The position numbers and the translations under genes were made by a program. A DNA stretch of 63,839 bases, counting the filler, from Platydemus manokwari (lineage: Eukaryota), in NCBI GenBank assembly GCA_037951405.1. It is 6 parts of 6 records of this genome, joined end to end, with 100 filler letters (N's around TTAATTAATTAA, not from the genome) between each part and the next. Parts side by side here need not be neighbours in the genome. Positions count along the whole stretch, not along the records: positions 1 to 11,404 come from JBBMOY010696652.1; 5 more parts are not named here. The stretch is one strand, 5' to 3'. The notes beneath the pieces are model-generated. The model was not told where the DNA came from. It saw only the letters and a list, made by a program, of their open reading frames with translations, and did not search any database. This document shows, in pieces, positions 1-61,609 of this stretch. Position 1 is the first letter of the stretch; every line of letters begins with the position of its first letter.

Positions 1-3000
1 ACAATATGATTGTTAAAAGATATAACCGAAAATTGAGAACACACAAGTGTCAACATGAATTATAATTAAATAATATTCCCAATCCTAATAGAAAATTTTA
101 ATCATGATATAAATTTATTTTCTTATTCATCGATTGCTCGATAATTTCTCTATATAAATAAAATAATCCATTTCCTAAACTAGAACCAACTAAATGAACA
201 ATTTCAGGACATAAAAAGCACTTAGTCAATTGATAAGAGCATCGAGATGAGAGAATTTATAATCTGATCTCCAGATAGAAAAGCGAAATTTAGCTCATCC
301 ACAAAATTTGTCAACAAAATAACACAAAAATCACTTCATTAAGATTTGAAAAAAAAATCATTCATCACATGTCACCCAATTGGATATCCACAAGAAAAAT
401 CAGTTCCAAAGAAAATTAATAGATTGTTGAAAGTTGTGAAAGAAATTACGTTTACGAAAATGAAATTATCAAACTCAATCAATAAAATTAATGTCGACAT
501 GAAAGTAAATACTGTCGTTGCTATGTAACGAAATGTATCAAGCTGTTAGCAACAAATCGTTTTTTGGTTTTTCTGATAATCGGTATTTTTTTTATTAAAG
601 CAAATAATCGCCATTTGGTTTTATACCGGGCATAAATCTCCACATTATTATTCATTGTTTCTCACGAATTATTTTCATATCGTGGTACTGAATTTGTTGT
701 CATAGAAGGACTTATTGAAACAAAGCATTGGAAAATTTTTGTTTATTAAATAATGATTTCTATTATAAGATTTATTAACACAATATATGGCCCATGTTAG
801 GTAATAATCTAAATAATTATTAAATAAATCATTTAGATTGTAAAAAGTAGTTTTTTTAATGATTAAGTGATTTTTTGTTTTATAATCGAATTTTGGAACT
901 ACTCATCCATTAATTGATAAGATGTTTATTCGAATTGGTTAAAAGTATATTTTTATCGGTGAAAAGTAAATGTCACAATAATAAATTACTTTGATTAGCA
1001 TTTAATTAATGAATGAAGCTTTATTTTCGATTTTTGTTCAATGTTAATGATTGTGGGTTGAAATTATTTTCAATTCTAAATAACCAATTTATTTCTGTTT
1101 TGATAAGATTTAGTTTTGTTGTTAATACTATAAATTATTTTATCACCCATTGGTTTATAAAAAATACACCAGCTTACGAGAATTTCTATTGCATGTTTAT
1201 AATTTTTTAAAATTTGATAGCAATAATCTAACTATGGATCGAGTAAATTAAAAATAAAATGATCAGATTCTTGTCTCAAATTTAATTGGTACTTAACAGA
1301 AAAACTGTACCATATTTCTTGTCATCATCTCTGATCAAATTTCGTTCCTTTGATAGTCACGCGGCCTTTATTGATTCTAAAAAATATCATAATTTTCGGT
1401 ATTTTATTCCATATTTTTTTCTTAAAAATTGAAATGTTATTATTAATAATTTTTCAGACTGTTCAGTCTGTGATTATATATAACAAACTCTTAATCGAAT
1501 CACAATATCCAAATCATTTTGTAATTTTCAAATGTGACTCGCGCTGATGTGGAATAAAAATAAAAAATTCAATCGAGCTGTGCCAATAATCCCAGTGATA
1601 AGTTAGAGTAAATTTGAGTGAAGTAGCTGTAACATCGAGCCAACCAAAGACAGAATAATGAAATACCGGGTTTCTATCCGTTATCGATGATTAGAAAAGA
1701 CTATAAAATCGGTATAATTGTGGACTACCTGATTCATAAATTTCAGTTGCATGGGTGGGAATAGTGGGTGCACTTGGATTTCTTTATAGTGATTTTTACT
1801 AGCAACTGATTTTAAAATTAATGTGATCAACTATTAATAAATGGTTTACTTACCCTTATTTTTTGTGAAATTGGCATATAAAATAATAAGGTAGAGTGGC
1901 AATAATAATTTTGTTTGAGGTTTTTTGAACTTTTTAATAAATGGGATTTCATTATCAGTTGTTGATAAAGACAGGGTTTTTAATTATCCCAAAATCTTAC
2001 TCTGTGCTACAATTGATCAATATTGATAAAGTACCGATTGATCGAAACATAAAATTATTTATTGATTTATTAAATACGTTATATCACCATTAACTCAAAC
2101 TTTATAACATATTTTTATTACTCTCTTCTCTTAATCTCTTTTGATTTTGGTAGTCGGAATAAAAATAAGATGTAGTTTTTAATATTTTTACAAAATTGAT
2201 TTGAAGAATTCCTTTTATTAAGTTTTATCGAGACGAGATTTGGCAAAAATCATTTTAATGATATAATGTTAAATATAATACCACTGACAATTATAATAAT
2301 TATCGCCAATAATAAGTGAGGCCTATATTCGTATTTAATAATGTCGTCATCATCGAAATGTCAAACTATTAGTTCACAATTTTTTGGTAAAGCATATTAA
2401 GAAAACAAAATCATTACAGTATAATATAAATACAATAAAGATATTTATTACAAAATAGTATTTATTTACTTTATGTATCCCTTTCATACAAATTCTTTCT
2501 ACGATGTTCCTTCCTGATTCTAATGTCTTTATCAATTTTGTATTTTATTGACTCCAGATTTTATCTTTTGGCGAGTAACCTCATTTTGCTTATCAGCACT
2601 GTAAATCGATAGTTGTTATCAATTCATTAGGATTTCCCGTCTAGACTGTCTCGATCTTTGTTATTTTTACTTTGTTTCTTTCGTCTATTTCTGATTCAGA
2701 ATATCAGTGAATTTCGGATAAAAATATACTTAATTTAGTCGCTGCTTTAATAGAACAAGATGTAGAATAATAAATCTGAATTAGGAGATAACTTGTAATT
2801 AATCTATCTTGACTGTAAATGTCAAATCATGATAACTCAGTTTCATACTCGGAATTTATTTTCATATAATTGTTTAAGTACTTTGATCCTTTTCAGTAGC
2901 CGCTTTTTTCTATATTGTATTTACATTGAGCATTTTAAAAATAAAGATTATGAATTATTAATTTATATAATGATAAATTTAAAGAAGAAATATATTTTTA

Positions 3001-3225
3001 TTATAAACTAGCAGTTATCAAAAATATTTTTTTCGTAATTAATTCAACTATTGTGGCAAAATATATTCTTAGTATGAATTATAAGCCTTATTTAAATTAT
3101 CTTTGATATATGGAAAGTCCACATAAGAAGATCTGGGAAAGTTAGAAGAGCTTCGAATTAGCATCAAGAGAGTAAGACTCATTTAGAAATTCGAGCTATA
3201 CACCTTCATCGTAGGAGTATTTGAA

Positions 3226-3397
3226 GCATGGTCTCTGTAAGCAGCTTCTTTTTTTATAAAGAACTCATTGAAAACGAACTGGAAACTCATGACACCAAAT
3301 TATCAATTTAGGAACAATTATTTAAACAAATTAATATCTTTTGATATTAATTTATATAACTTTTTGAATTTAAAATTTCAAATCGGCAGTCTCCACA
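3226..3397 (-). mobile_element. Diverged LTR of the TRIM family with degenerate PBS
   Basis: Plus strand reads gcatggtctc|TGTAAGCAGC...gaaaacgaactggaa...gacaccaaattat...aacaattatttaaacaaatt...ctccACA, matching the LTRs at 7983-8156 and 8383-8510. Confidence 0.6.
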
Positions 3398-5399
3398 AAA
3401 TAATATTATCATAAACAATCTAGGATTTCACAATAAAAAAGTAAAGTAAACTTTATTTGAATGCACAGGGCGAACATGAAGACAAGCTGCAAAAATGACA
3501 ATACCACTAATATTACTAAAGCTTTAAAAATACGTTACGCTTATAAAAGGAAAAACAAAGCATACAAATAAATGAGTATCAAAAGAATTTTCCTACAATG
3601 AAATTAGCCTGGCAAATGATTGGTACCGGTCCAAAGTGAACTGAATAATTGAAACACAGTAGATGACCTTCACAGAATAAAGAATAAAATAAATAAGAAA
3701 ACAATCAAAGCTAAGAATCTGTGTTAATGGTTACATTGAGACCTAACCAAACGACTCAACCTTGATTGGTATCGATTACTTGGATATTATTTTCTTAAAA
3801 TAATTACTGCAAAATTTATGTCACATGCACTGATTTCAATGATATAGGTTTATCGAACATGGTTTAAAAATAAAAAAAATAATTTTAAAGTAAAACTCTT
3901 AAGAAAATTATTATCAAATCCAAAGAATCAGTTCGAAAATTAATTTTTTCATTAATAATTACATGTTTGTCTAAATAAAAAAGTTTTTGAAAGATTAATT
4001 AAAAATCTTTCTCTCTTAACTTGTTTTGTTCAAAATCATTTGAGGTAAGAAATCATTTTCGATTTTTTAATCAGTCATGTATTAATCTTTACATTTGTTG
4101 TTTTCGAGCCCTATTTCTAAATATCAATTATAATTTTTAGTGATCACTTTATTCTGGATCAGTTTAAAATTCATGGATATTATCTTTGCTACTTAATTCG
4201 TTGCTATTATGACCAGTGACAATTTATGACACTTAATCAATTAATAATCAATGACTCAAATACAAAATTTTATTCTTAAATGACACCGATACAGTTTAAA
4301 CACCAAATAAAACAACTAAAATTGCAATGGATTTTGTTATTATACTGTACACCGAACTTTATGACGAACCTTATAATAACTGGATGAAACTTGATAGACT
4401 CCCCTTATTGGACCAAAATCGATTACCTTGAAGATTTTTGAGGTAAACCTCGATAGTAAGATTTACAGCGACGTATAGTATTGATCAGTATTTTAAATGA
4501 ATGTATCTTCATGATGGATCTTAGTAAAATACTGGATACATACAGAGTTTTTATTAGTAACACGAAATAATCTTCATTCTGCTGGAATGTAATTCTGTTG
4601 CGTTGTAATATTCGTATATTCACTGTAACTGTATCTGTAATTTCTGCTTTAGAAATATCTGTTAATGCGTATGTAATAATCGTGTCTGCTACCTTATATA
4701 GGTAACGACGAATCATTCATAGATATTCTCTACAATTAAAATTTAATGTCTCGCAAGTTTATTTTATTTCCATAAATTTATTATGGCAGAGAAATATTTT
4801 CTGCAATTAAATGTATTATATTTAGAAATATTCAATGTGATTTAATTTATTTAACGTAATTATTTTTTCGACAGCTAGAATTTATTAACCATGATAACTA
4901 ATAGTTTGACTAGCTATTTTATTTTACTAGACTGTTTTTTAATTGATAGGTTTATTATAGAGTAAACTTAATTGATTTTATTGATTAATAGAAATGCGGG
5001 AGGTGATGATTTATAATTGATATTATTTTGGATTAAATTTATATCATATTTTATAATTTTCATAAAAATATTATTTTCATGCCTACTCTAGAAAGAAATA
5101 ATGATAAATAAATATTTTTCAAACAATATACCATAAAATAAAAATAGTATTAATAAAATACTAAAATAAAAAGATGAAAAATAAAACACTAAAATTAATA
5201 ACGCAAAAGATAAAACATGATAATAGAATAAATTTAATTATTAAATTAAAGATAGCAACAAAGAAAGAAAGAAGAGAATAATATAAATAGGACCATAAGT
5301 GGCAGTTGCCTGTACGAATATTAAGAAAAAATTTATTTTTATTTACACTGAGATAGTTCAACATTAGACAAAGCCCACAATTCTAATTCAATATCAAAC

Positions 5400-5820
5400 G
5401 TTCAATGTTATTCTACGCCAGCAATTAAACCTGATATTACAATTCGTTGTTATACCATATCACTCAACGAAATTCAGGCAGAGCAGTTACTCGTACACAG
5501 ACTTTTATATGAAAATCCTTTTTAGCAGAAGAGATCGATTATTAGTGGTATTCAAACTACTCAAGTTTACTGTTAGGCAAAATTTTTTGAACATTACTTA
5601 TATTAGTCTTAACTTATTTATAATAAATTTACATGATAATTCCTTGAATTTAAATGGATTGGACCCAGTCCAACCATTCTATAAAATACATAAAACTGTA
5701 TAATCCACGCTCAAACTCACTTTGAATCGAGTGATTGCTGGAACTTATAGGTCAAATCCTGAGCACGCCACTCGATAAACAGGACCCTTGCGACGAAATC
5801 ATAGGAGACATTGAACTATC
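5400..5820 (+). mobile_element. Possible decayed Ty3/gypsy integrase C-terminal remnant
   Basis: Short translated islands ILFSRR and TGPLRRNHRRH resemble the gypsy integrase tail motifs LFGR and RRNxxH; heavily disrupted. Confidence 0.25.
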
Positions 5821-6798
5821 TTTACAGAACAGTCTTCTACATAATTCATAGTCTAACACCTGGTTATTGTTTTAAATATTTGTTTGTTTATTGTTATATC
5901 TATCAATTCCGTATAATATATTTCAGTTATATATTTGCAAAGGTATTCATGGTTATCCTTGGAGTTAAATAACGACGTACATTTTTGATTATTTATATTT
6001 TATATTTACCTTTAAAAGTCATTAATATAATTAACATTTTATTGAACTCCTTACGAAACCAACACAAAAATATTTTATACATCTAATAGTATTGTTTTGA
6101 TTACATCACAAATCGATACACAGCTATTGTCAGATTATTGTCTTTTAAATTGTTAATAGCCCCAAACAGATGCACAATAATCTTTATTCTCAACTTATTA
6201 AAAGGCTAAAATTAGCTTGAAAATATATTTTAGAAAATTAGAATTTTTCTGGACAAGAGGAAATTGAGTTAGAAAATACAAAAACAAATTTCATAAAAGT
6301 TAATTATTTTCCTGTATTCTCCAAGAGACCAGTAGAAAGCTTATTTAAACAAAGATGTTATTGTTTCTTAAAAAAGGAAAAGTTTTAATTTTGGTATAAT
6401 TATAGTTGATAATTAGATATCGTCCAACTTGGTAAATTAAACAAATAATTTAAATACAGATTTTTCTCTCTATTTTTAATAACGAAATTTTAGAAAAAAC
6501 CTTATTATTTAAACAATAAATTATTACAAGTTATTCAAATTATGAAATTATTAGAAAATGAAAGTGTCACACATAGCAATTTTACCCCAATCAATTCAAT
6601 TTAGATGTATAAAATGTAGCATATTTATATACTTCTTTATCGACTGATTCAATTTTGATTATCTGACATCTGGGGTTGGGTCTTTCTGATGAGATGAGTT
6701 TCAAAACTTAAAACAACGATGTGGGTGTGCACTAAGCTAAATGATTTGTAGAAAAATATCAGTTAAATTATGATTCAAATCCAAGAATAAAATCACAC

Positions 6799-7077
6799 TG
6801 TAAACCGCTACTGTTTTATAAAAAACGCATCGAAAACGAACTGAAAAGACTCGACATTCAATTCTATTTTAAAGACAATTATTTAAACAAATAAAGAAAA
6901 TTTAATACCAAATTAAATTCAATATAAAATTCAATTCAATTTAATAACAAATTCAAAATAAAATCAAATTCAATTTAAAATCAAATTCAATACAACATTA
7001 AATTAAATATAAAGCTTAATTCAATATAAATCAAATTCTATACTAATTCAAATTGAATTCAATTTGATATTCTCACA
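6799..7077 (-). mobile_element. Solo LTR of the TRIM family with expanded AAATTCAAT-like internal repeats
   Basis: Plus strand starts TGTAAACCGCTA, contains the core acgcatcgaaaacgaactgaaaagac and ends TTCTCACA; no TSD seen. Confidence 0.65.
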
Positions 7078-7818
7078 CTAATAATTCGAAAATAATATAA
7101 ATAATTAAAAATAATGTATAATTAATTACAGACATTATTAAAACAAAACCGATATCACAAACATTTACCAATTCAACGAATACTTACATGTTTCAAACGA
7201 TACAGAAAATCTGAAAGGAAAATCAATGAAAATTTAACGCTGATAATAAACAGTCACCATTCAACGTAATTGAGATAATGCAAAGTGTCACATTTCAAGG
7301 CTTCGATTAAAATGAATAACAACGACAAATCCATCGACAATTTGATGGATGGAATAATTAATTGTAAAAATTTCATATCTGCAATTTCGACTGTCACAGT
7401 CAGAGAAATATCGAGAAATGATATCACACAGGTTATCATTAAATCAACTCGATAATATTTAATTTTAATAACCACGAAATTTGTATGAAGAATTAATGAT
7501 TGGGTTTTGTTGAATTGGATTCAATTATAAAATTTATAAATTCTATTTCACCAGATCCAGCTGACAAAATTAAAATCAACCTATAAATAATAAATATTAG
7601 CTGCTGTCGTGACTTTTAAGGTGTATCTCGCGATTTGCAAATTTTAAGAAGACATTTTTCTGAACAAAATCGATAGTCGTATATTTATTTGAATTGAATT
7701 TGCAAAGTATTTTATACAAATCAAATACCAACAATAGATGACATGTTGGATTGGATATTCAGATTAGAAATAATTAAATGAGGATTAAACAAAATATAGT
7801 TTTTGACAATTAATGATC

Positions 7819-8919
7819 TGAGCTATTATTACTTTATGAGGCACGCATTTGAAACGAACTGAATAGTCAGGACACTAAATTATATATTAAAATGCAATAA
7901 TTTAAACAAATTAATTTAATTTTATACAAAATTTGAATTAAATATTAGAAATTTAATTCATTTAGAAATTCTCACATCCCCTGGTAAGCCGCTATTATTT
8001 TATAAAACACGCATCGAAAACGAAATGAAAAAGACACGACACCAAATTATGTAATTAAATACAATTATATAAACAAATTATTATCATTTTATATAAATCT
8101 AAATTCGATATAAAATTAATTCTTCAAAAAATTAATTCAGTTCTAAAATTCTCACATCGCCCTTTCTTTAAAATATTTTATTTACTTTTTATTCTCAAAT
8201 GACATTGTATCCAATACTATACATGTTTATCTCTTTAATTATCTCTAATTCTTCTATCTTATTTACATCTAATCTACACCTTCTTTATAACTTTTTCTTT
8301 TAGTCCCAACATCTTCCTCCTTCTTCTCCATAATTTACAGGCACTGGACTTCTCAGAATCGGATCCAGATGCGTGGTCGCCATGTAAGGCGCAATTATTT
8401 TTTTAAAAAAGACGCATCAAAAACAAACTGAAATATAAATTTATATAATTTTATATGAAATTAAATTTTACATCAAAAAAATTTACATCAAAAATTTTAA
8501 TATTCTCACATCTCTATTTACTTAAAATCTTTGATGTACTTTGAAGTCTTAATTGACATTGTATCGAATACTCTACATACTTATCAGCGTAAAATTCTCT
8601 AATTCTTCTATCTTCTTTAAATTGTTTTGTATCTCCTTTATAATTTCTCTACGGCTTGTTTATATCCTTTTTATACATTCTCAATATCTCAATCCTTCTC
8701 TTTGATTATTATCAGTCATTGACTATCTCAAAATCCAATCTAGATGCGTAGTTGCCATATAAGCTACTATTGCTACTAGGTAGCTCTCATTTAAAACGAA
8801 CTGAAAAGTCAGTACACTAAATTATTTATTTAAATACCGTTATATAAACAAATTAATATAATTTTATATAAAATTTGAATTATATTTATAAAATGTTTAT
8901 TCATTTAACAATACTCACA
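7819..8919 (-). mobile_element. Tandem array of a TRIM (terminal-repeat retrotransposon in miniature)
   Basis: Four LTRs (~7819-7976, 7983-8156, 8383-8510, 8758-8919) and two homologous internal regions (8157-8382, 8511-8757). On the minus strand, LTR ...TTACA is followed by PBS TGGCGACCACG, and PPT AAAGAAAGGGCGA precedes TGTGAGAA. Confidence 0.8.
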
Positions 8920-9228
8920 AATTTAATATTTTATTTACAAAGTAGAATCGATGTCGACACAAACAGAGTCATTTATTATTGGAGGTTATTGATAAGGGTT
9001 TAGTGATTGGTTAAATACCAATAATATAAATAATCAATAAATTATTTAATATCTAATACAGATAAATAAAATTTTGATTCCCATTTCGAATGAATCAAGT
9101 CATCCAAGTTTAATAATATGTCTAAGAGTTCATCTTTGGAATAAAGATCCGGAATTGTTTTTGTTCAAAGTGGAAAAGAAATAAACACAAACAAAATCTG
9201 ATTTCGATCAGATTTTATCAAAAATAAC

Positions 9229-9500
9229 CTTCGGAATCATTTTTAGATTCATTTCTTATCAATCTTTCGTCTTCTAAACGCAAAATATTTGCGACTTGTC
9301 TTCTCAATAAATCCGGTTCCGTGAAATAATTCATAAAAAACCAATCCATGCACCAAATAACACATCTTTATTTCTTTGTCAGCCGTACATAGAAACAGGA
9401 AGAATTAATCATTCTATTTCCGTCAATTCAACTTTTCTTCTCGTTCAACCAGAGACTTCCATTTTTCTTCTTGAATTTGCTTTTCGTCTCTACAGACGTG
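9229..9500 (-). CDS. Two putative exons (9433-9500, 9229-9365), weakly similar to C2orf50/C20orf85-type ciliary proteins
   Basis: A phase-compatible GT-AG join gives HVCRDEKQIQEEKWKSLVEREEKCVIWCMDWFFMNYFTEPDLLRRQVANILRLEDE; the QxxxW...E...WxxxWxF pattern is recalled from that family. No start exon found. Confidence 0.3.
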
Positions 9501-10577
9501 CTGAAATATTCTATCTGACTTCAGTAGTTTTTTAAAAAGTCATTCTATTACATTATTGATAAAAATGTAAAAAGCACACGCGGTTTTATTAATTTCTACC
9601 AAGCATCTTCAAAATCCTTGTATTTGTCTATAGAGAGTGTGTTTTGAGGGGACACAATTGATTTATATAATGATAATATATACATAAATAATATACACAC
9701 CTACAATTTAAATACATCAATACTACTTGAAATACGTTATTGATTTATTTTCATTATATAACGTCAATAAGAACTGCGAATATTCTTTAAAAGAATAAAA
9801 ATAGCTAGTATTCCTATAGAAAAGCTAGTATTTTTAAAAGATGGATTTAAATTAACCAGGAAGTTCCGTTGAATTATAATGTTAGATATAAGTATTGTCA
9901 TGTATTGATCTCAGAATAAAGATTTGTGATTCTATTAGTGAATTCTATTAGTGATTCTATTGTGAACCTATTAGTCAAATACAAAGACTAATATTAATTG
10001 TAGGATTGATACATTCACCGAATTCTGGATTGATTTACTGCAAATAGAAGGTTCCTCTCGCTCCCTTTTCTATCTCTTCCACTTCCATCACCCCTCTCTC
10101 CCTTTACCTCTAGATTTTGAATTTACGATTAATTTTTATATAATTAATTTTGTTTTATGAAATTTTCTTAAGTTTTATAATTTTAAAAGTTCATGAGAAT
10201 TAATCATAGTTAATAAAATACAAACTAATTGACTGAAAATCAATACAATTTCATAATTGATCTCTGAATTATCGAATCAATCTAATAAATAACTAATTGA
10301 AGAATGTAAAAATCGAAAAAAAATAAAATAACAAAGGAATATTAAATATCTAAAATCACTTTAACGGAACAACTATTAGAGAAAATTAGTACTCTGTTCG
10401 ATTAAAAATCCATCCAAGAATTTTAGTTAACAAAGCTTTCAAAGAGAAATTCAAAAATTATCTAAAATTTTTAATTAATGTCGTTGATTTTGTAACTCAT
10501 AATTAATTCATTTTCCTTTTCGCATGACTGAATTATGTTCATGGTTGATTAAGAAATCAATGGAAATAAATTCATAC

Positions 10578-11081
10578 CAATAAATGGTTGTCTCGATGAT
10601 GAAGAAACTTGGTTTGGATGCCATCGTGTAGAAGATAAAATTATTCTTGGAGATTTTTCCACGCTTTCAATTCGAAGACAATTATTACTGTAAAATATGG
10701 TCATTATACATTCTGCTGTATCGGTGTCATTCTTACATTGCAGAAAAATCATGTTTGACAAATGCAGGTGATTTAAATTGTCTTTGTCGTGGTGATGTTT
10801 GCGAGGTGGAGGGGGCTTTCTTCACTCGAATCTATAGGAAATATATACAATGACTTCGAACCCTCCATACATACAGTATATATACATCATATTCTTCATT
10901 CAATTCAATTGAATTGACAGTGGCATTTGGAGTGATATTGTCATCATCATTATCAGGATCCACAGATAAATTGTCATCACAGATATTGATTTTAGAGACA
11001 TCTATGAGGGTCCTTTTATTTGATAGTTCTCGTGTATTATCGCCTAAATTACTGGTTTGTCCTCTAGTTGAAAGGAATACC
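10578..11081 (-). CDS. Three consecutive exons of an unidentified gene
   Basis: Open, phase-consistent exons VFLSTRGQ...NEEYD / IRVKKAPSTSQTSPRQRQFKSPAFVKHDFSAI / NNCLRIESVEKSPR...QPFI, separated by ~50-nt GT-AG introns. Confidence 0.5.
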
Positions 11082-11099
11082 CTGAAAGGATAAAAACAC

Positions 11100-11331
11100 T
11101 GAGAGATATTTTATATGAATTAAATTTTAAATTCAGATTTAATTCAAAACAATTTTTAATTCACATTTGAATTCAAATTTGATTCAGATGTAATTCTAAT
11201 TTTATGAAAAAAATATATTAATAAAACAATTAGATTTATTTGTTAAAATATTTGTATTTAAATAGATTTGTTGTGTATTGACTTTTCAGTGCGTTTTTAA
11301 TGTGTGGTTTTTAAAATAGTAGCGGCTAACA
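11100..11331 (+). mobile_element. Solo LTR of the TRIM family with 5-bp target-site duplication
   Basis: TGAGAG...cttttcagtgcgttttt...tagtagcggctaaCA, flanked on both sides by AACAC (11095-11099 and 11332-11336). Confidence 0.8.
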
Positions 11332-11404
11332 AACACGATTAACATAAAATTGAAAGATCATAGGTTATTGTATTATGGTTTCAAATTAGCACACCTCTAA
11401 CATG

Positions 11405-11504
11405 NNNNNNNNNNNNNNNNNNNNNNNNNNNNNNNNNNNNNNNNNNNNTTAATTAATTAANNNNNNNNNNNNNNNNNNNNNNNNNNNNNNNNNNNNNNNN
11501 NNNN
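11405..11504. other. Artificial contig spacer
   Basis: N44-TTAATTAATTAA-N44, with stops in all six frames. Confidence 0.97.
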
Positions 11505-11863
11505 GTCGACTTAGTGTCAACATGATCAATGAGAAATTATTTGTATTGATTTGGTTTGGATTAGTTGTAATGTTATTGAGTCATGTGATTAGTTTATTGG
11601 TGTGGATAACAAGAGTAGTGATTCCTTATAGACGATTGAGAATCATTAAAAAAGTTTTCAAAATCAAAGATGTTGACATTCGTGATAGAAATACATTGAA
11701 GAAATTCGTTTTCGATTTCTTGAAAATCGATGGAATATTTCTCATCAATATGTTGGAAAGAAATGCCGGAGATTTGATTTCATCAGATGTTGTTCATGAA
11801 TTGTGGATGTCATACTGTTCAGATTTATCGATTGATTCATGCGATGCGATTAGCAATCAATGA
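11505..11863 (+). CDS. inx: Innexin (gap-junction protein), 3' part; 5' end lost at contig edge
   Basis: RLSVNMINEKLFVLIWFG (innexin CxLxxNxxNEK motif plus TM4), then FLKIDGIFLINMLERNAGDLISSDVVHELW, the conserved innexin C-terminal motif. Confidence 0.92.
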
Positions 11864-12989
11864 GTGACTGATATGATATCAAATAATGGTTGATTATTGA
11901 TTATAGTGATGGTTGAGTGAATATTTATTGATTAATTATTGATTATAAGATTTAGTTGTTATGGGAAACTAAATAAATTCGTCGACCTTTATAGCAGTAA
12001 AATTTTGTTACTTTAAACTGACAGTCACTTGGGAATTTTATTATTTTTCGGTATTTAGTACCGTTATTCTTCTAAATTTTTAAATTATTCGCCTAATTAC
12101 AATTTTGACCTTTAAAAGTTTGGATTTAATAAAATTAATCGATTTTTACTCATTTTCATCAATTCTCTTTAATTTTTATAAATAATAATATATTTCAGAA
12201 ACGTATTTATGCACATAGAGTAATAATTGGATCAATAATAAATGTCAAATTATCAATAAATACCAATAATCGGTGAAAATGGAAGCAGGGATATCAGGAT
12301 AAATATTGACTAATGTCAAGATAAAGATCAAAAGATGTCATATCATAAATATAGATCTTCATTTAATATTTGAATTGGATTGGATTGGGATTAGGAATTT
12401 GAAGATTGGATTTATTTATTCTGCATTTATCTTCTTACACTGTTCATATGGGCTAACAATCATGAGGTCCACTTTCAAAACTTGAGTATAACATTAATTA
12501 GCACATATTCTCTGGCTCTTCTCAACAATATATAACAGATAATCTAGTATAAACATAATTTTGGAATATTTTATTAAATTTCAAAACATGAATTATAATG
12601 ATTACTGCATAATAAGTGAAGACGGTCGTTTATGTGTATACAGTATTGTATTTGTGTTGTAATATTAAAATCAATTGCTTGCTTATTGTATAATTTTGTA
12701 TTGGTGTTTTCCAACATACTAAAACTTACTGTAGTTAAAGGTTGTTTTGATATTTCGTCGTTTGACAAATTATATAGGATAATTTAATTTGAGACTGATT
12801 GCTTAGAATAAAATTGGACCATTGTTGCCAATCATACTATCATCGTATAGTATTGATTGCGAGGTCAAAATAGGTATTCTAAGGTTTTATATTTTGTACG
12901 TTGGGTTTGATTAGGGCCCACAGAGACTGAAAAAGACAACAGTGATCCACAATAGCAATTTTATTGAGACTGGTAGGAATTAGAAATAA

Positions 12990-13491: not shown

Positions 13492-14149
13492 ATCTGTGCG
13501 ATAAACAATTCAGACTTACAACGGATTACAAAGCAATTATATTCATGCTAAAAACAAAAAATCCGATAACACCACTATTTCAGACATGGTTTAATTATCT
13601 AGTTTGGCATATAAATTATCTTTAGAAAGGGTGTTAATCACACAACTGCAGATAGCTCTCATAAATACATGTGATACTTGTTCCTTGTGGGGAAAATTTA
13701 AAGAAATTTTGATAATTTTAATAATAATTTTAAAATTTCATTAAATTATTTAAAATTTAATATGAAGTGATTTTTAAATATTTCTATTTATATGCCTGAT
13801 TAAGATTGACAGTTAAAACTCCTGGAAGAGATTTTAATTGGTTTTAAAAAATGTGTAATTCGTTTGATAATAATAAATAATTTACGAAAACCATCGAAAT
13901 AAATATTTCCATTGAATTTTCAACTTAAAACGAGGTAGACACTACTAACATTCACAATGCTCGATTAATAATGAGAATCCAGGCAAAGGGGAAATGGAAA
14001 TCAAAATACTAACCATAATGACTGAGAATAAATGGGAAGAATGTAGATAAACAATGAAGGAATTGAAATTATTAAAAACTGAATAGGAAGTACAGGAATT
14101 GTTTAATATATGTTCCAAAAAGACATAATAAATTTAAAAGAGTACAAAA

Positions 14150-14280
14150 TTTGAATACCATCAATTAAAAGAAAAGTAATGATAGAATATGCTTACAAGC
14201 TGTTGTATCATGAAGGAACTGAGAAGGTTATGCGATATATAAGAAATAATTTCGAAATGAAAGTATTGATAAAGGTATTT
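14150..14280 (+). mobile_element. Decayed LTR-retrotransposon integrase zinc-binding region
   Basis: IPSIKRKVMIEYAYKLLYHEGTEKVMRYIRNNF resembles the integrase HHCC region (HxGxxK...F). Confidence 0.55.
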
Positions 14281-16399
14281 GGAGTACCACCTAGCTGTCA
14301 CCTGGCCCCACCTACCTGTCAATATTACCTATTATTACCTATCTGTTAAAACGGGCCAATGCACATAATCCAAGTCTCGAAAACAGCATAACGCTTCGAA
14401 ATTCAAAATCGCTATTAATCATGACCCAATGTATATAATCCCAAATTTCGAGAGCAGCAAAACGCTTCGAATACACATAATAAATATCCCGTTTTATTGA
14501 CCCTGCACAGGCATTAGAAAATACTCTGCAATAAATAACACCCCACTTCATAACAAAAAAAATGTAACACCTTGATTATAGACGAAGGAAAGCCTTTTTG
14601 AGTCAAATTGGTGTCGGTGGCCAATATCTGATGAACTCAATGTGTAGCTGACATATTACAACACAATATTTGACTGTCGCACTCATTGTGTTACTGATAT
14701 GTTACTGATATAACTGATATATTACAATGCAATATTTAGTAACTGTTGTATTCGATGTGCATAAATTATTATTATATTTTCTGTCTTATTTTAAACTGTA
14801 TGTATAAAGCAGATTGGAGATGATTTATCGGCAATAGGACTTAATAGAGAAAAATCCGCAATAACAAACTTAGTTAACAATTAATAATCGTAATTATTAA
14901 TTAATCGTAATAAATTGAATAAAAAATTTAGGAACGATAATAATAAAGAAATACATTAAAATACATTGAGAAAAGTAATAAAAATAAATCATCGAATAAA
15001 TAAATTACGGTGCGAAAAAATTGGGTTCTAAGAAACATGAGAAAATAATGACACATAGACTATAAAATAAAATCCGAATAAAATGACTGAGAAAATACAG
15101 TGACGAACAAATAAATAAAATCAATGAGCGAGAAAATTTATCATTTATGACAACGGAAATCAGACTTAGGATAAATACGGTATCAGTAAATAGAATACCA
15201 CCAAAATTAATTACTGAGTTGTGAATAAACGATATATGACTAATTCGCAGTTCTAGCATAAAAAAGTATCAAATAAAAACATAATCAGCTTTCAGTGGAC
15301 ATTCATCTGGATTACAACCGGACAATTGCTTGGCTGAAGCATTATTTATATTACACCAGGAATATCGGCTGTAGGAGAAAGAACATTTGCTAGCTGGAAT
15401 AATAATCAGCTTAAGTAAGGATTTGGTCACTGTTCATTTAGTAAATATCATTCCATCACAAAATTTATATCATTTGAGCATAAATATTTTGTTGTCGATA
15501 AATCACTTTACCAAGTCATTAACATCTGCTTCATTCATCTTACGTATTCGTCAGTTAATTACTGAAGCAAGGTACAGACTATTTGCTATACTTTTTTGTT
15601 CACTCATAATTAATTATTGTATGTTGTTTATTTCTAAATAAACCTTAACGAACCATCCATTGAGCTATTGAGATTCTATAAAAGTGATTTTGCTGAGTAT
15701 CAATAACCATCATTTTTAAAATTAATATTGGGGGTTAATAACCAGGAGAATTATCGAGTCAATTCAAAGTGTTTATTAATCGCACACAAGCGTAAGCCTT
15801 TAATTAAGTTACTCAGAGAAATAATTGCCATAATTTTGACGTAAACTGCACAATTCCAACTAGTAATTGACTTCTACTCTTATTCAGGGCAAGCGGCAAC
15901 ACCAGTTTTGCTGTTGAGACCTTTTTAAGAATAATGGATTGTTCGAGTATTTTGTCGATCCAAACCTTCGACGAAATCTTTCAAATAAGAGAAATTAATA
16001 AATAAAAAGTGGTCCGGCAAACCTTTCTTTAAAGGGGATGAGGAGCAAGTCATTGCTACCTGGATTCTAATATTCTAATATAAATAAATTGAATTATTTC
16101 AAATAAATTATTTTATATATTATAGTATTATGTAATGCATTATATTTTTGTACTATTGTATAAAAATTATAATTCAAACTGTAGAGAAAAAGGTCAACCG
16201 TAAGTGAAACGTCAGAGATAATCAATAGCGCTCGAGTCTCTAGAATAGTAACTAGAAGTCTATCAATAAATCAATCTTTACTAAATAAAAATATAAATAG
16301 TGAGTCAATACCCAGTTTTAACAAAACCGAACGACAAATAGATTGCGAAATAAGTGAATAAACAGTACAGTCAGAAAGAAGTAATTCAAATTTGAAAGA

Positions 16400-16915
16400 A
16401 ACTGCAATAAATAATGAAAACATGAATACAACAATAGATGAGTTTGATCGCATAGCGACAGCTCACGGTTGGGATGATAATAAAAAAATGATGTAATTGC
16501 CACTATATTTAAGAGGATATGCTCTACAAAAGCATCAACAAATGATACAAACGGATAATAATTTATAGGGAGACAATTTAACTTTTACCGATATAATCAA
16601 AGCATTGAGAAAGCGAACGAGGGTAAATATAACATTATTCAGTTCTAATCACTACAATACGAATGGATTAAGTGAGTGACAATTTAAAACGATAACAGAT
16701 CACAGAAATGCAACAGTAAAAGATACACAACACACAAAACGGGTTTTAATATTACCAAAGATTCAATACTCCGGTGTAAAGAACTACTGAAAAATCAAAA
16801 AAGAGAAACGGTAGAGATAACAAAACGGAAATTCAAGATAGGTGACAAGGTATTAGTAAAAAAGAAGTACTGGACAAAGAGCAAGAAAGACATAATAACC
16901 ATTATGAAGTGTTAG
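16400..16915 (+). mobile_element. Internally deleted Ty3/gypsy remnant (gag N-terminus plus integrase tail)
   Basis: EFDRIATAHGWDD..LPLYLRGYA (gag) and RKFKIGDKVLV (integrase FxVGDxVLV motif). Confidence 0.7.
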
Positions 16916-17844
16916 GAAAGAGCACTGAAAGACGTTATGAATAAGGATTGTGAAGAAAATAAAACAATCTGCAAGTGAGAATGCAAGGAATATTTAAAAG
17001 TATTAAATTGAAATTATTTTAAAAAAATGTAATATATATATATATGTCTGTGTGTCTGTATTTGTTTATATCTTAATATATTTGCAGATACTTTCTAATA
17101 AATGAATTTTATTATTACCACAATCTTACATTGTGCCACCAACAGCCACAATCTCAGCAATGGAATACTCCAATTATATCTCCACTTGTCTACGATTGAC
17201 TGATAAACAAGTGGTCAACAGTGGTCGACACCCAAAGAGCGAATAAGTATATTATGTTTATCTTTGATAATCAATACAGAGCAACAACTCACCGACAATA
17301 TCCGATAATACTCATGGAATACCTGATCTCCCTATTTGAAATTGAAGCTTGGCAACTGCCAACTTCTGATCTATCCAAGACCTGTTACTCCACCCTTCAC
17401 CAGTACACACTTCCTGTTCAATAAGCTAACTCTAATTTCAACAATCGGATCTAGTGAACCAAGAATTTATTCAACAAAATGTAACTATACAATGACGTCC
17501 GGTCTACTTGGACTTACGAAGAAGAACCCTCCAAATCTGCTCACAATATCAACTAGTTAACTGCCACAATCAAGATCTGCCTACTCGATTCCCGCATCAG
17601 TCCAACGATCAACTCTTCAAATAAAATTCAGAAAACCAAAACAAATCGAAGGGGAGTACTATTATTTGGTGCTACAGACTAAGGAAAACCATGAAAAGTA
17701 GGTAGTTATCCGATAAATTTCAAGAAAATCAGTGTAGATCGAAATATATTATAGAAAGAAAATAAAATTGATGTGAGGTCTTGTGCCACCGCATCGCGAA
17801 GTATTATATGTTTATAAGAAATAAATATTAGTTTTTTAGCAGGA

Positions 17845-20895: not shown

Positions 20896-20995
20896 NNNNN
20901 NNNNNNNNNNNNNNNNNNNNNNNNNNNNNNNNNNNNNNNTTAATTAATTAANNNNNNNNNNNNNNNNNNNNNNNNNNNNNNNNNNNNNNNNNNNN
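20896..20995. other. Artificial contig spacer
   Basis: N44-TTAATTAATTAA-N44. Confidence 0.97.
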
Positions 20996-23287: not shown

Positions 23288-26200
23288 ATGAGTAGAGTAA
23301 AATTAGATAAAGATAAAATTCTTAAAAAATTTAAAACCCTTTCTATGACGGCTTTATGTATACAAAAAACATCTAAATATATGTATCAATTCTTTAAATC
23401 ATCCGATTCAATAGTTTCTATTTGGCATCAAGCTCTTTTGTCAGGTTTTAAGAATCTAAATAATTAACTTAATTTAAAAATATTATTTCAGCATCCGAGC
23501 AATCAAAAATAGCCTTATTCTATATCGCAAACGAGATGTTACAGTCAAGAAATTACGGATCGAGTAATTTTAAACAGTCTTGGAAGCCGCAGCTATTACA
23601 ATCCGTTGAACTAATTAAGTAAAATACATTGATGAACATTTTATAATAAAAATTTATAATTAAGAAATTCGTCTACTATAGATAAAATTATTCGGATGTT
23701 TAATATTTGGATTGAAAGACATGTTTATGATCAAGCATTTATCGAAGATTTAATTAGCAAATTATGTAGGCATATTTAGATGAATTTTATTGATAGATTT
23801 TTATTGGGTTTTGTTGATTAAGCTTCAGCAAGAAGCCCAGTTGTTAATGAAGAAGAAGCGAAAAATATTATATTAAATTTCGAAGTGAGTAGATTATTGA
23901 TTTTGTTTGTTTGTTTTTAAAATTAAATGAAATATGATATTTATCCATCTTTGTAAATAATTAAATAATATGTATTAGCCGGAAGATTCAATGGATAAGC
24001 TTAGAAATTTGATCAAAATAGAATCAGAAGTAAATGAAACCATGAAACGTATCGATGTCGTTGCATTGAACTTTGATGAGAAATCATGCAAAGAAGCAAT
24101 AAAGAAATTGAAAGACAAGGTTCATTGTAATGAATTCAGCAATCAACTAGATGGAACTATCAATCAACTGTTTCAAATTTGTTCGTTAATGGAAGAAGAA
24201 TTGAAAGTGAGAAAGAGCACTTTGAAAATGATGGAAAATGCTGAAATATATTATCAAACTCAACTGAGTGAAACGTTGATTGTTGAAGATGCTTACAAGA
24301 GATATGGAAATCTAATATCGAAAACCAAGGATGCATTAGAAGAACATTTGGATTTCCTCATTGACGATTCCGGACCCATCGATATCGACGATGCTCCATC
24401 TCCTGGTAAAACACCGCCTTATTTATATGAGGATACCGTAAAAAATGTTTCCAAATTAAAGGGCTCTCCAATGTCGTTTCAGGATGTTATTAGTCCCACA
24501 CAATCGATGGATATGTCAGAAGATGATACGCCGATGGATTCGACGACATATTTGGATAAACCGTATTCACCATCAAACGAAGTCGAATCGAAATCTGAAA
24601 CCAATATCAATACGACCACTTCCAATGAAGACACGAAAACATCTTTATCTTGCAGTGATGCTTTGAAAATATTGACATCCGTATTTACACAATCGTTGAC
24701 GAAAAAAGTTACAACGGAACCGGAAGTGAGAGTCCATTTGCAGCCAGATATTTTTCGCAATACTCTTTCAACGGCAAGCATTAACAATGAAATCGCCGAT
24801 ACCAATACCAACAATACGTCGGAAAATTCTGATTCCGTCGTTGCGGATGCCTTTCGTTTGATTTCCAATCTAACTGGAATCAAAAATATTAGTGAAAGGT
24901 TTGTTTTTAATATTTATTTTAATTTTTATATTAAAAATTATTTTTATTAATTTTAATTTAATTATTTTTTTAATTAATTTATTATTTTTAATTATTATTT
25001 ATTTAGTTTTTTCATTTTTTATAATTGATTTTGAATTTATTGTTCTTTCTTGATTTTACATTTTAAATAATATTTAATAATTATTATTTGATTATAATTA
25101 TTATTGCCGTATTTTCTGGACTGTAAGGCTCACCTTCAAACGGATTTTTAGCATTTATTAAGGCTGAAATATTAAAAATAATTATGATAGGCAGAAAAAA
25201 TTTCGTTTTTCTACGTCGATGAAATCTTATGAAAATCTAAAAAGAATACAATTTAAAACATTGATTTGTGAAAATCACATGTGCAATTATATTAAAAGTG
25301 CTAGCAAACCATAACAGAGCATAAATATACTCTCCATCAGCTTCAATGACATTCTGGAGGTGACGGGTCAAATATTTCTTCAGATATTTTCTTTCTGATT
25401 AAAACGAAATTTTCTTGCTGGCCCTTATTTATTAACCAGTCAACTCATAGTTTGGGTGCGCCTTACAGTATTTATAATTATTTTAATTTTCCAATTTTAT
25501 ACAATATTTATTAATTATAATTTTTTAATAATTATTATTTATAATTTTTTTTATTTTCTATAATTAATATTTATTAATTAAAATGTGTTTATAATAATTA
25601 TTATTTTATTTATATATTATGGCTTTTGTTCTGAATTAAGCTTATCACATTCAAATTTTGTGTATCCCATATAAAAATTGGTTTTTCCCTTCATTTCATC
25701 TCTATCATTTTGGGCTGTTTTATTTATCTTTATTATTTCCAGTGGACAAGTTTTCGTTTATTTTTGTCTCGAGATCTCATTCATAGTTTTGCTGTTCATG
25801 ATCTTGATATAAAATTAGAATGTGTTCCGGATCGTTTAAAATTATATTTTATTTTGCTTTGTAATGTTGGTAAATTTTGTGATCAATTTCTTAATTATGT
25901 GGTTTTTTATTATTATTTCATATTTTGATATTTATTTTATCCCTAATTATTTTTTATTTATAATATTATTGACACAAAATAGTATTGCTCTCATATGGAA
26001 ATATGGCTGTAAATATAATTTATTATTAATAATAATTAAAAATAACTTTTTAATAATGTCCATAGATATTTTTTAGTAATCATCAGAGATTTGTTAATAT
26101 ATATTTGATGATGAAAGATTTGTTTTTTGGAAACATTAGCATTTGTTCCATTATATGAAAACTTCATTTTTTCTTGCTAATTTCAATTTAAAAATATCTT

Positions 26201-32073: not shown

Positions 32074-32173
32074 NNNNNNNNNNNNNNNNNNNNNNNNNNN
32101 NNNNNNNNNNNNNNNNNTTAATTAATTAANNNNNNNNNNNNNNNNNNNNNNNNNNNNNNNNNNNNNNNNNNNN
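32074..32173. other. Artificial contig spacer
   Basis: N44-TTAATTAATTAA-N44. Confidence 0.97.
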
Positions 32174-32820: not shown

Positions 32821-33456
32821 CTGAAGTTTGGTATGTGTATCAATTATTAGACTGGTTGAATTCCTGGCGGCGGTGGGAGTAGTGTTGAATAGAACATTGC
32901 AATCACCATCGAATGCGCCAGACTGAGTAACGTAATTAGCATAATTATGATATTGCATTTCTTTGGTCATGAACACAGCTTTGGCTTGTAAACATAAATA
33001 ATAGATAAGATGCTTCCATTTGCGAACGATCATCACATCACTGTTGGGTTGACTGCTTTGAAAATTGATTTTCCTTTTAAATAGATCATCGATCACACCA
33101 ATCCCATACCGAGCACGCTTCAAACTAAAGGAATATTCATCTCTGACCTTTTTCTAGAAAGTTTTCGAAAATTTCCAATTTTAACAACATAGAGAAAAGA
33201 AATCAATAAACATCAAATTACATATTCTGTGAATTGAGTAGGATCCAGTCGATTATTGGGCGATGACTGTAAGCTCATCATTTCTTTCAGAGTTCTTTTC
33301 TCCAATCCAAAACAATGAAGTGCTCGATGGAATATCTCGGCAATAAATTCACAAGGCACTAAATGCAGTTGGCTCAAATCGTTTTTATAAGATTCCCAAT
33401 TCAAGGCGTGATTCTGTGCCAGATATTTCATGGCATTAGGTTGGCTAAGACAGTAC
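32821..33456 (-). CDS. Two well-supported exons (33222-33456, 32821-33153) of an unidentified multi-exon gene; upstream exons probably near 35.3, 35.8 and 35.9-36.1 kb
   Basis: Long open frames joined in phase by a 68-nt GT-AG intron, with a CAG|GTAAAC donor at 32821. A 56-nt exon near 35303-35358 ending AC|GTGAGT joins in phase. Confidence 0.6.
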
Positions 33457-41502: not shown

Positions 41503-41602
41503 NNNNNNNNNNNNNNNNNNNNNNNNNNNNNNNNNNNNNNNNNNNNTTAATTAATTAANNNNNNNNNNNNNNNNNNNNNNNNNNNNNNNNNNNNNNNNNN
41601 NN
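41503..41602. other. Artificial contig spacer
   Basis: N44-TTAATTAATTAA-N44. Confidence 0.97.
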
Positions 41603-50798: not shown

Positions 50799-50898
50799 NN
50801 NNNNNNNNNNNNNNNNNNNNNNNNNNNNNNNNNNNNNNNNNNTTAATTAATTAANNNNNNNNNNNNNNNNNNNNNNNNNNNNNNNNNNNNNNNNNNNN
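50799..50898. other. Artificial contig spacer
   Basis: N44-TTAATTAATTAA-N44. Confidence 0.97.
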
Positions 50899-60300: not shown

Positions 60301-61273
60301 ATTAATAATTAAGAATGAAAAAAAAATTGTATTCATTTTGTTTGGGTTACAAATTGGTCTTATGGAATACTAGTTCTGTATTCGCCGCACCGTAGTATGT
60401 AGTGGAATTTGAAATAAACGGCCCTCAAAATTTACGATTTTCTATCACGTAGGAAATCGTGTTTTATAATTATAATTACAATATAGTAACAAAATTAAAT
60501 TTCTTTAATATTTCTCATCCAATTTTTCCTATCTGTCAAATAAATGAATGACAAATACAGGATGTAAATAATTCTTGGATCAAGGCTAGCATTCATTCTT
60601 GTCTGTTCACTCAATGTTACATTTGAGTCGAACGATCAGAATCAGTTTCACTTGAAATGCCTACAAATCATTTACGTCTCAATTCAATCTAAAATCTTTA
60701 AAAATATCATATCCTATTTCATAAATTTAAATTTTATGTTATCTTTAAATAAAATTTTTCTGAAAAATTATTTTCGCTGCAGTGCTTAAAAATTCCGCAC
60801 GCTTTCTTTTAAATATTTTCTACTCATTGAAGTTAAGCCTTATTGATTGATTCCAGATGTTTTGTTTATGAATGAAATAGTCACCTAGAACACTAACGAG
60901 CACATACATGAGTGGTAGCGTATTTTTATAAATGGTTACGTGGCAATATTATTATGAAACTCATTGCTACAATATTTCTAGTAGTTCTGTAAGACTAACA
61001 AAGCTAAAACATAATTATGACCGAAATAAATATATCATTTGATTTGGAAGAATATTGTAAATTATTAAGTGATTGTCTCGTTGACTTCATGATTCCTCTT
61101 TTTCTCATAGTGTATGGCGTAAAGAAATTTTTAAAATTGAGAAAAAGTAATTTATTATGACTTGCATTATGTGATATCGATCTTATTTGAAAGGACTTGA
61201 AATGATTAAAAGGTCTTTATCTTATCTTTAACACCTAACTGTTATCTTTAAATCTTTTGTAGGCTCATAGACC

Positions 61274-61361
61274 TTCTCAGTTTCAAATCCAAATATATGG
61301 TCACCATGTAAGCCACTACTATTTAATAAAGCACATATTGGAAATGAACTGAAAAGTCACA
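61274..61361 (-). mobile_element. Partial TRIM (LTR end + PBS + start of internal region)
   Basis: ttctcag...atggtcacca|TGTAAGCCACTACT...gaactgaaaagtc matches the junction at 8351-8430. Confidence 0.65.
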
Positions 61362-61609
61362 GTAAAACTTTTGTTTGCTTGCATCAAAATTTATTGTTTC
61401 AAAAATAACACGTCTTTTTTTGAATATTTAAACAAATCTCCTGTTGTTTTTGAGATCATTTTTAGCCACTCAATTCTTCAAGGTTTTGGCTGTCCCTGGA
61501 AATCAAGAAGCACTTGATGTGGGCATAAAAATTTCAAAATCATCTGAGGACCGTCATAACGATATCCGTTCTTCTTTGCCTTGTTTGGTTCTTTCTTCAG
61601 AAAACATCT

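What the first reader, a model, noticed from the sequence alone, without database searches (positions are those of the whole stretch)
7819..8919. Tandem-array TRIM: miniature non-coding LTR retrotransposon with a tRNA-Arg primer site
Seen on the minus strand: LTR-internal-LTR-internal-LTR-(PPT only)-LTR, with LTRs of ~130-175 bp bounded by TG...CA (some ends mutated) and internal regions of 226 and 247 bp lacking an intact ORF. PBS TGGCGACCACG abuts the LTR and a purine tract precedes the next LTR. Knowledge: this PBS is complementary to the 3' end (CGTGGTCG-CCA) of animal tRNA-Arg(TCG). TRIMs and shared-LTR tandem arrays are well known in plants but reported in few animals (ants, taeniid tapeworms, bivalves). 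Inference: a probably undescribed animal TRIM family. The units are clearly diverged from each other, which suggests recombination between different copies rather than recent slippage.
Basis: partly seen in the sequence, partly recalled or inferred. Interest (0 to 1): 0.7.

Follow-up and report, generated by a model that had tools for sequence, protein, structure and literature searches.

The report
Nested miniature LTR retrotransposons in animal
Two copies of a small, gene-less, much-repeated jumping element of an invertebrate sit here, most likely one inside the other rather than side by side; the kind of element is already known, and only the exact spot of the nesting is unusual.

Summary
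The structure is real: on the minus strand four LTRs (162, 128, 174, 160 bp), two non-coding internal regions (247, 226 bp; 168 of 225 aligned bases identical), a tRNA-Arg-type primer site and purine tracts. Four more LTR copies lie in the window, two with perfect 5-bp target duplications; one sequencing run lays 9,311 contigs here, up to ~4,000 times flank depth. It is a high-copy TRIM-type retrotransposon of an AT-rich invertebrate. 'Tandem array' is probably wrong: the outer LTRs L1 and L4 are sisters (6 informative sites to 0 and 0; tree support 85/90) and L2's best partner is L3. Best reading: a 528-bp copy (L2-I2-L3) landed at the PPT/3'-LTR border of a 569-bp copy, leaving the 5-6-nt PPT tail twice, either as an integrase target duplication or by PPT-guided, integrase-independent insertion as in Tf1. 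Not shown: short interior genome-wide, host tRNA, autonomous partner, absence from Repbase/Dfam, independent support for the L3/L4 junction. Animal TRIMs are known from several phyla. New member of a known kind.

The parts
8758..8919 (-). L1: 5' LTR of the outer copy (subtype A)
   Evidence: 129 of 160 aligned bases identical to L4, best pair of all; starts TGTGAG, ends TTATA
8747..8757 (-). decayed PBS of the outer copy (9 of 11 match)
8511..8757 (-). I1: non-coding interior of the outer copy, 247 bp, ending in a purine tract
8383..8510 (-). L2: 5' LTR of the inner copy (subtype B), TG...CA, about 40 bp deleted, 15-bp local duplication
   Evidence: best partner is L3, score 101 vs 54 (L1) and 65 (L4); TRF period 15; bridged to I1 by an error-free contig of run X1
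8372..8382 (-). intact PBS, 11 nt, tRNA-Arg type, abutting L2
   Evidence: equals the first 11 letters of the primer site that PMC11905727 assigns to tRNA-Arg; 14 of 15 called tRNAs with that 3' end are Arg
8157..8382 (-). I2: non-coding interior of the inner copy, 226 bp, ending in the PPT AAAGAAAGGGCGA
7983..8156 (-). L3: 3' LTR of the inner copy (subtype B)
   Evidence: 336 loose ends of other copies diverge at 7984
7977..7982 (-). 5-6-nt PPT tail between L3 and L4: candidate target-site duplication or cDNA-borne PPT remnant
   Evidence: matches the 5 nt before L2 at 3 of 5 and before L3 at 4 of 5 positions (read from the sequence)
7817..7976 (-). L4: 3' LTR of the outer copy (subtype A); right end decayed
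   Evidence: sister of L1; joined to the unique flank by an error-free 874-nt contig
6799..7077 (-). solo LTR of the same family, lengthened to 279 bp by a 17-bp subrepeat; no clean TSD
3236..3388 (-). solo LTR, TG...CA, perfect 5-bp TSD GAGAC
11100..11331 (+). solo LTR, TG...CA, perfect 5-bp TSD AACAC
61245..61362 (-). truncated copy: 3' end of an LTR, PBS variant and start of the same interior; no second LTR within 1.7 kb
   Evidence: score 30 against shuffle maximum 6 in 2000; downstream LTR score 21, within background 19-33

Best explanation
The unit is a TRIM-type non-autonomous LTR retrotransposon of about 530-570 bp. Inferred life cycle (from established LTR-element biology, not shown here): transcription from the LTR, packaging by the Gag/Pol of an unidentified autonomous element, minus-strand priming by host tRNA-Arg at the PBS, plus-strand priming at the PPT, integrase insertion with a 5-bp target duplication, later decay to solo LTRs by LTR-LTR recombination. 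The locus is a nest, not a serial array: an older copy L1-I1-L4 (subtype A) received a second copy L2-I2-L3 (subtype B), same orientation, exactly at its PPT/3'-LTR border, so that the last 5-6 nt of the PPT stand both before L2 and before L4. Shown: anatomy, 5-bp TSDs of two solo LTRs, high abundance, L1+L4 kinship. Inferred: order of events and the route. Two routes split about evenly: (a) integrase insertion in which the PPT tail is the target duplication; (b) integrase-independent insertion guided by single-stranded PPT at the cDNA end (as shown for Tf1), or recombination of a 2-LTR circle with a PPT remnant at its junction, with end-joining on the far side.
For: 3' block of the LTRs: 6 informative sites, all L1+L4 | L2+L3, 0 and 0 for the other two splits (0.004 if sites were independent). 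L1/L4 global score 184, the highest of 21 pairs; L2's best partner is L3. L1 and L4 both lack a ~12-bp segment of L3. ML tree of 7 LTRs: the only supported fork is L1+L4, 85/90. Spacer length equals the 5-bp TSD seen at 2 of the 3 complete solo LTRs (chance of each 0.0003-0.0009). I1 and I2 are only 75% identical yet colinear from PBS to PPT, so the short interior was copied at least twice. Run X1: flanks depth 3-23 (one bin 75), LTR blocks ~64,000, PBS bin 44,346, interior ends 4,300-8,100, interior middles 113-788; 78 contigs continue from the PBS leader into an I1/I2-like sequence; 336 contigs leave at the LTR end into unrelated flanks. PMC11042837 (passages): about 20% of Tf1 cDNA keeps at least four single-stranded PPT bases, and integrase-independent insertions go to PPT/PBS homology and to resident copies.
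Against: L2+L3 is not a supported clade in the tree; most of their shared states are the family's common states. Informative sites are few and two are adjacent. The two putative TSD copies match at only 3 of 5 bases (chance of at least 3 of 5 is 0.16) and are purines by definition. No clean TSD flanks the whole structure (3 of 5 at the aligned end; 5 of 6 only if L4 is extended to 7814, one of 15 ends tried). No listed contig of run X1 bridges the L3/L4 or, by the 31-letter rule, the L2/I2 and I2/L3 junctions (8 of 10,419 pieces were shown). PBS-side depth is roughly 6-10 times the PPT-side depth and the middles are far lower, so many relatives may have other or longer interiors; summed contig depth is not a copy number. 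Tf1-type events mostly give tandems with one shared LTR, not this form.
Confidence: 0.62

Rival explanations
1. One reading: a shared-LTR tandem array (L4I3) built by ectopic recombination between diverged copies, whose third interior was later deleted down to the PPT tail.
For: Such arrays are common in TRIMs (PMC4717578, passages; PMC7215508, passages) and most LTR tandems in Drosophila arise by LTR recombination (PMC5932611, passages). Each interior abuts the next LTR in the normal register.
Against: It does not predict that the two outermost LTRs are sisters; a shared middle LTR should be an A/B chimera, whereas L2 scores 101 with L3 and 54/65 with L1/L4; the deletion would have to start exactly at an LTR end and stop 5-6 nt before the next.
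Confidence: 0.18
2. The LTR and PBS belong to a larger (autonomous or LARD-type) family, and the short interiors are a minor deletion derivative rather than the family's main form.
For: Depth at the PBS leader (66,089 at 8362) is about ten times that at the PPT-side interior (5,000-7,000), and interior middles are only 7-48 times flank depth. No contig of another copy spanning PBS to PPT was listed.
Against: Two interiors 25% apart share one colinear short structure; both interior ends are hundreds of times flank depth; the 80% likeness cut-off loses fast-evolving A-rich middles; none of 180 ORFs of 55 aa or more in the window hits a Gag/RT/IN Pfam family.
Confidence: 0.13
3. Assembly artefact: copies from different loci or haplotypes were joined in a short-read scaffold.
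For: The window is a gapped scaffold (10 N runs); the family is highly repeated; the L3/L4 junction is not bridged in the listed pieces.
Against: The copies are 17-25% apart, so their words are unique; error-free contigs at single-copy depth (15-23) cover 7600-7924, 8149-8336 and 8359-8568, the last bridging I1/L2. Run X1 may be the source of the assembly, so this is not independent.
Confidence: 0.06

Closest known systems
[quoted passage not shown]
   Same: Under 1000 bp, two direct repeats of 100-250 bp, PBS and PPT at the interior's ends, no coding capacity, TSDs, solo LTRs.
   Different: Arginine-type PBS (plant TRIMs use Met according to PMC3532108); LTR length varies 128-279 bp through a ~17-bp subrepeat.
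PbTRIM of the harvester ant (PMC3532108, passages)
   Same: Animal TRIM of 480-781 bp, LTRs 152-184 bp, many solo LTRs, local clusters.
   Different: PbTRIM has a tRNA-Leu PBS and 4-bp TSDs; here Arg-type and 5 bp. Sequences not compared.
ta-TRIM of taeniid tapeworms (PMC4558846, passages)
   Same: Invertebrate TRIM, many decayed copies and solo LTRs, 5-bp TSDs in Taenia, a few tandems.
   Different: tRNA-Leu PBS of eight bases; its tandem copies are highly similar, these are 17-25% apart. Sequences not compared.
Tandemly arrayed TRIMs, L3I2 etc. (PMC4717578, passages; Cassandra arrays PMC7215508, passages; zebrafish LTR-11_DR in PMC10886601)
   Same: LTR-interior-LTR-interior-LTR appearance in one orientation.
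   Different: Four LTRs with two interiors, an LTR-PPT tail-LTR junction, outer LTRs sisters; Cassandra arrays are described as almost identical units.
Integrase-independent, PPT/PBS-guided insertion of Tf1 (PMC11042837, abstract and passages)
   Same: New copy joined to a resident copy exactly at a reverse-transcription primer site.
   Different: Tf1 events mostly leave one shared LTR; here two separate LTRs with a PPT tail. Works-like comparison only; no activity tested.
Helenus / Ajax / Cassandra (TRIMp3; PMC10886601)
   Same: Short non-autonomous LTR elements, found in several animal phyla, some with tRNA-Arg PBS.
   Different: No tRNA- or 5S-like sequence in these LTRs.

Membership tests
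TRIM | Total length under 1000 bp | tested here: met
   Inner copy 528 bp; outer copy without the insert 569 bp
TRIM | Two terminal direct repeats of 100-250 bp with TG...CA ends | tested here: met
   128-174 bp; TG at all four starts; CA end intact in L2 and in 4 of 4 other copies, decayed in L1, L3, L4
TRIM | PBS complementary to a tRNA 3' end next to the 5' LTR | tested here: met
   11 nt equal to the start of a tRNA-Arg primer site in PMC11905727; 14 of 15 called tRNAs with that end are Arg, 8 of 23 loci had no tRNA call over the match
TRIM | PBS matches the host's own tRNA-Arg (isoacceptor) | not testable with these tools
   No genome held; no tRNA in the window
TRIM | PPT before the 3' LTR | tested here: met
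   11 and 12 purines in the 15 nt before L2 and L3
TRIM | No coding capacity | tested here: met
   Longest stop-free stretch 50 codons; 0 of 6 read-through sense frames hit Pfam
TRIM | Target-site duplications | tested here: met
   Perfect 5-bp TSDs at 2 of 3 complete solo LTRs; none clean around the nest itself
TRIM | Short interior is the family-wide, dispersed form | tested here: inconclusive
   Both interior ends at hundreds of times flank depth, middles 7-48 times; no other copy seen whole
TRIM | Autonomous partner with the same PBS, LTR ends and TSD length | not testable with these tools
   None among 180 ORFs of the window; genome not held
Tandemly arrayed TRIM (TA-TRIM) | Strict alternation of LTR and interior with shared LTRs | tested here: not met
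   L3 and L4 are separated by 5-6 nt only; L1+L4 are sisters
Tandemly arrayed TRIM (TA-TRIM) | One TSD pair flanking the whole array | tested here: inconclusive
   3 of 5 at the aligned end; 5 of 6 at one of 15 alternative ends
Helenus / Ajax / Cassandra (TRIMp3) | tRNA- or 5S-derived sequence with Pol III boxes in the LTR | tested here: not met
   ARAGORN 0 genes; Rfam no match in the LTRs up to E 5; no B-box motif in 7 of 7 LTRs
ta-TRIM / PbTRIM | tRNA-Leu PBS | tested here: not met
   PBS is Arg-type versus Leu
Any family catalogued in Repbase or Dfam | Sequence match to a catalogued entry | not testable with these tools
   No such library; no match among this scan's earlier findings, metagenome contigs or viral contigs

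The most novel reading that the evidence does not exclude
This family homes onto its own copies: new cDNAs are placed preferentially at the PPT/U3 border of resident elements (by PPT-guided, integrase-independent annealing or by integrase recognising the border), so that LTR-PPT tail-LTR junctions recur genome-wide. It would be a natural animal record of the primer-guided insertion route shown in the laboratory for Tf1, and a way to seed TRIM arrays without unequal crossing-over.
Probability: 0.15. Interest if true: 0.62.

Novelty: new member of a known kind. Interest (0 to 1): 0.32.

Why it matters
As a family it is one more animal TRIM, apparently abundant, with an arginine primer and 5-bp TSDs that point to its helper element; useful for repeat annotation of this host and for the distribution of TRIMs. 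The junction matters more: a random insertion into a 570-bp copy would hit this register and orientation about once in 600-1,100 events (arithmetic; the locus was picked because it looks like a tandem, so this is not a test). If the junction recurs, it gives a countable natural signature for how tandem and nested LTR structures form, which PMC11899658 (abstract and passages) leaves open.

Tried and rejected
Whole-genome search: no genome is held. Sequencing runs: one holder, no RNA holder listed, so expression is untested. A 26-letter LTR-end/PBS pattern found 0 matches in metagenome contigs and 0 in viral contigs. Rfam over 2500-12000: 2 weak matches (E 1.6, 2.9), neither in the element; no ribozyme, so not a retrozyme. 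Pfam on all 180 stop-free frames of 55 aa or more: no Gag, RT or integrase; Gag-, integrase- and SH3-like peptides seen by eye at about 14.2, 16.4 and 16.8 kb got no retroelement hit and remain unidentified. Host identification: innexin relatives at 65-69% are unnamed; named ones among 5 looked up are Schistosoma/Trichobilharzia (40%) and Lottia (39%); the CREPT-like protein gave no usable relatives. A flatworm-like spiralian is a guess only. CpG observed/expected is 1.00, so CG-to-TG/CA changes in the PBS copies are not evidence of methylation. Chimerism of L2 or L4 (expected from a crossover inside the LTR) was looked for and not seen. Local duplication by slippage rejected: units 17-25% apart. 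Papers: 9 searches; none listed a TRIM of free-living flatworms or an insertion at the PPT/LTR border of an animal element, judged from titles and abstract starts; one search was swamped by regeneration papers. Supplements were not read and may hold family sequences (PMC10886601, PMC4558846).

Full report
Observation. The window is AT-rich animal DNA (GC 23-33% per 2 kb; innexin at 11.5 kb, E 5e-19) in a gapped scaffold; no genome is held. On the minus strand I find L1 8919-8758, I1 8757-8511, L2 8510-8383, I2 8382-8157, L3 8156-7983, a 5-6-nt purine spacer and L4 7976-7817. All 6 LTR pairs and the I1/I2 pair score above the maximum of 200 shuffles. L2 has the clean ends TGTGAG...CTTACA, an imperfect 6-bp inverted repeat (read from the sequence). 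The intact 11-nt primer site follows L2; after L1 it has two changes. The interiors have no stop-free stretch over 50 codons and no Pfam hit when read through.

The family. Four more copies lie in the window: solo LTRs at 3388-3236 (-) and 11100-11331 (+), each TG...CA between perfect 5-bp duplications (GAGAC, AACAC); a solo LTR at 7077-6799 (-) without a clean duplication, stretched to 279 bp by a 17-bp subrepeat; and a truncated copy at 61362-61245 (-) with LTR end, primer-site variant and interior start (score 30, shuffle maximum 6 of 2000). The one public run that holds the stretch (possibly the assembly's own source) lays 9,311 contigs on 7600-9200: flank bins 3-23 (one 75), LTR blocks about 64,000, the PBS bin 44,346, interior ends 4,300-8,100, interior middles 113-788. 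Against a mean of 16 from four flank bins this is about 3,900, 2,700, up to 400-500 and 7-48 times. The tool warns that this is no copy number; I take it only as 'hundreds to thousands'. 336 contigs leave the LTR end at 7984 into unlike flanks (agreement 0.44), and 78 continue from the PBS leader into sequence like I1 and I2. Against a purely short family: PBS-side depth far exceeds PPT-side depth, and no other copy was seen whole.

Primer. PMC11905727 (passages) quotes a primer site that GtRNAdb assigns to tRNA-Arg (formerly taken for Trp); its first 11 letters equal this PBS. A scan of viral contigs for tRNA-like ends complementary to the PBS gave 23 loci; ARAGORN called a tRNA over the match in 15: 13 Arg(TCT), 1 Arg(CCT), 1 Asp. 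These are not animal tRNAs, so arginine is supported and the anticodon is open.

Arrangement. The four LTRs do not behave like a serial array. In the conserved 3' block 6 sites are informative and all group L1+L4 against L2+L3. L1/L4 is the best of 21 pairs (129 of 160 identical, score 184), both lack a ~12-bp segment of L3, and L2's best partner is L3. In a tree of 7 LTRs (last 118 nt; last 80 of L2; the truncated 61-kb copy left out) the only supported fork is L1+L4, 85/90, below the starred level; L2+L3 is unresolved. The spacer between L3 and L4 is the tail of the PPT and is as long as the family's TSD. The simplest history is therefore an outer copy L1-I1-L4 (569 bp) and an inner copy L2-I2-L3 (528 bp) placed at the PPT/3'-LTR border. 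L2/L3 divergence (102 of 123; 40 of 48 in the 3' block) is no greater than L1/L4 (129 of 160; 36 of 48), as nesting requires, although the L2 alignment has many gaps. Weak points: the two tail copies match at 3 of 5 bases (chance 0.16), no clean TSD flanks the outer copy, and the L3/L4 junction is not bridged among the 8 pieces listed of 10,419.

Mechanism. Trans-mobilisation by an autonomous LTR element is inferred from the anatomy and from PMC10886601 and PMC4558846 (passages); no helper was found among 180 frames of the window. For the nest, route (a) is integrase insertion with the PPT tail as target duplication: it explains the length, needs one extra base at the L3 end, and does not explain the exact register unless the border is favoured. 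Route (b) is primer-guided insertion: in Tf1 about a fifth of cDNAs keep single-stranded PPT bases and, without integrase, insert at PPT/PBS homology and at resident copies (PMC11042837); a cDNA or 2-LTR circle carrying a PPT remnant would explain the register and the imprecise L3 end, but Tf1 products mostly share one LTR. That 2-LTR junctions can keep PPT bases is recalled, not checked. I rate the two about equal. Rivals: shared-LTR tandem plus deletion (0.18), deletion derivative of a larger family (0.13), misassembly (0.06).

Comparison. It meets the TRIM criteria that could be tested; it fails the defining features of TRIMp3, of ta-TRIM and PbTRIM (Leu primer) and of strict tandem arrays. 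TRIMs are reported from ants, wasps, tapeworms, bivalves, nemerteans and vertebrates, with tandems in bivalves, tapeworms and zebrafish. Direct LTR-LTR tandem junctions are known at low frequency in Drosophila (PMC5932611, passages). I could not test whether the family is catalogued. The host is unidentified: nearest innexins are unnamed, and named ones are spiralian at about 40%; there is no CpG depletion.

Verdict. A real, ordinary-in-kind, probably uncatalogued animal TRIM family; the locus is more likely a nest at the PPT/LTR border than a tandem array. Interest 0.32. The bold reading, family-wide self-homing at the PPT border, has probability about 0.15 and is testable by one genome-wide junction count.

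Noticed in passing
window 14100-14280 (+), 16380-16640 (+), 16760-16960 (+): Broken frames that by eye resemble an integrase zinc-finger start, a Gag capsid-like motif and an integrase C-terminal motif of a Ty3/gypsy element (resemblance recalled); no retroelement Pfam hit. Possible remnant of an autonomous element; no link to this LTR seen.
   Followed up: partly
window 6898-7058, 7929-7970, 8463-8499, 11123-11202: The 5' part of the LTR is made of a 11-17-bp AT-rich subrepeat with a different number of units in each copy, so LTR length runs from 128 to 279 bp.
   Followed up: partly
window 11507-11860 (+): C-terminal exon of an innexin right after a scaffold gap; closest relatives (65-69%) are unnamed.
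   Followed up: partly
window 10835-11110 (-): A 92-codon open frame with a possible splice acceptor near 11085, about 15 bp from the solo LTR at 11100; may be a host exon. Not verified.
   Followed up: no
window 51388-52533 (+) and 55416-55613 (+): Exons of a ubiquitin C-terminal hydrolase (UCH, E 0.0016 and 5e-16), with a long Asp/Asn-rich insert.
   Followed up: no
window 23979-24947 (+): CREPT/RPRD-like open frame (E 3.6e-6) with no close relative found.
   Followed up: partly
window 25635-25925 (+): Weak COX2 Pfam hit (E 0.0003); possibly a mitochondrial insert or chance.
   Followed up: no
window 33271-33318 and 34144-34191: An identical 48-bp direct repeat 873 bp apart inside a probable gene region.
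   Followed up: no
window 11405-11504, 20896-20995, 32074-32173, 41503-41602, 50799-50898: Five 100-bp scaffold gaps, each written as 44 N, 12 letters, 44 N.
   Followed up: no
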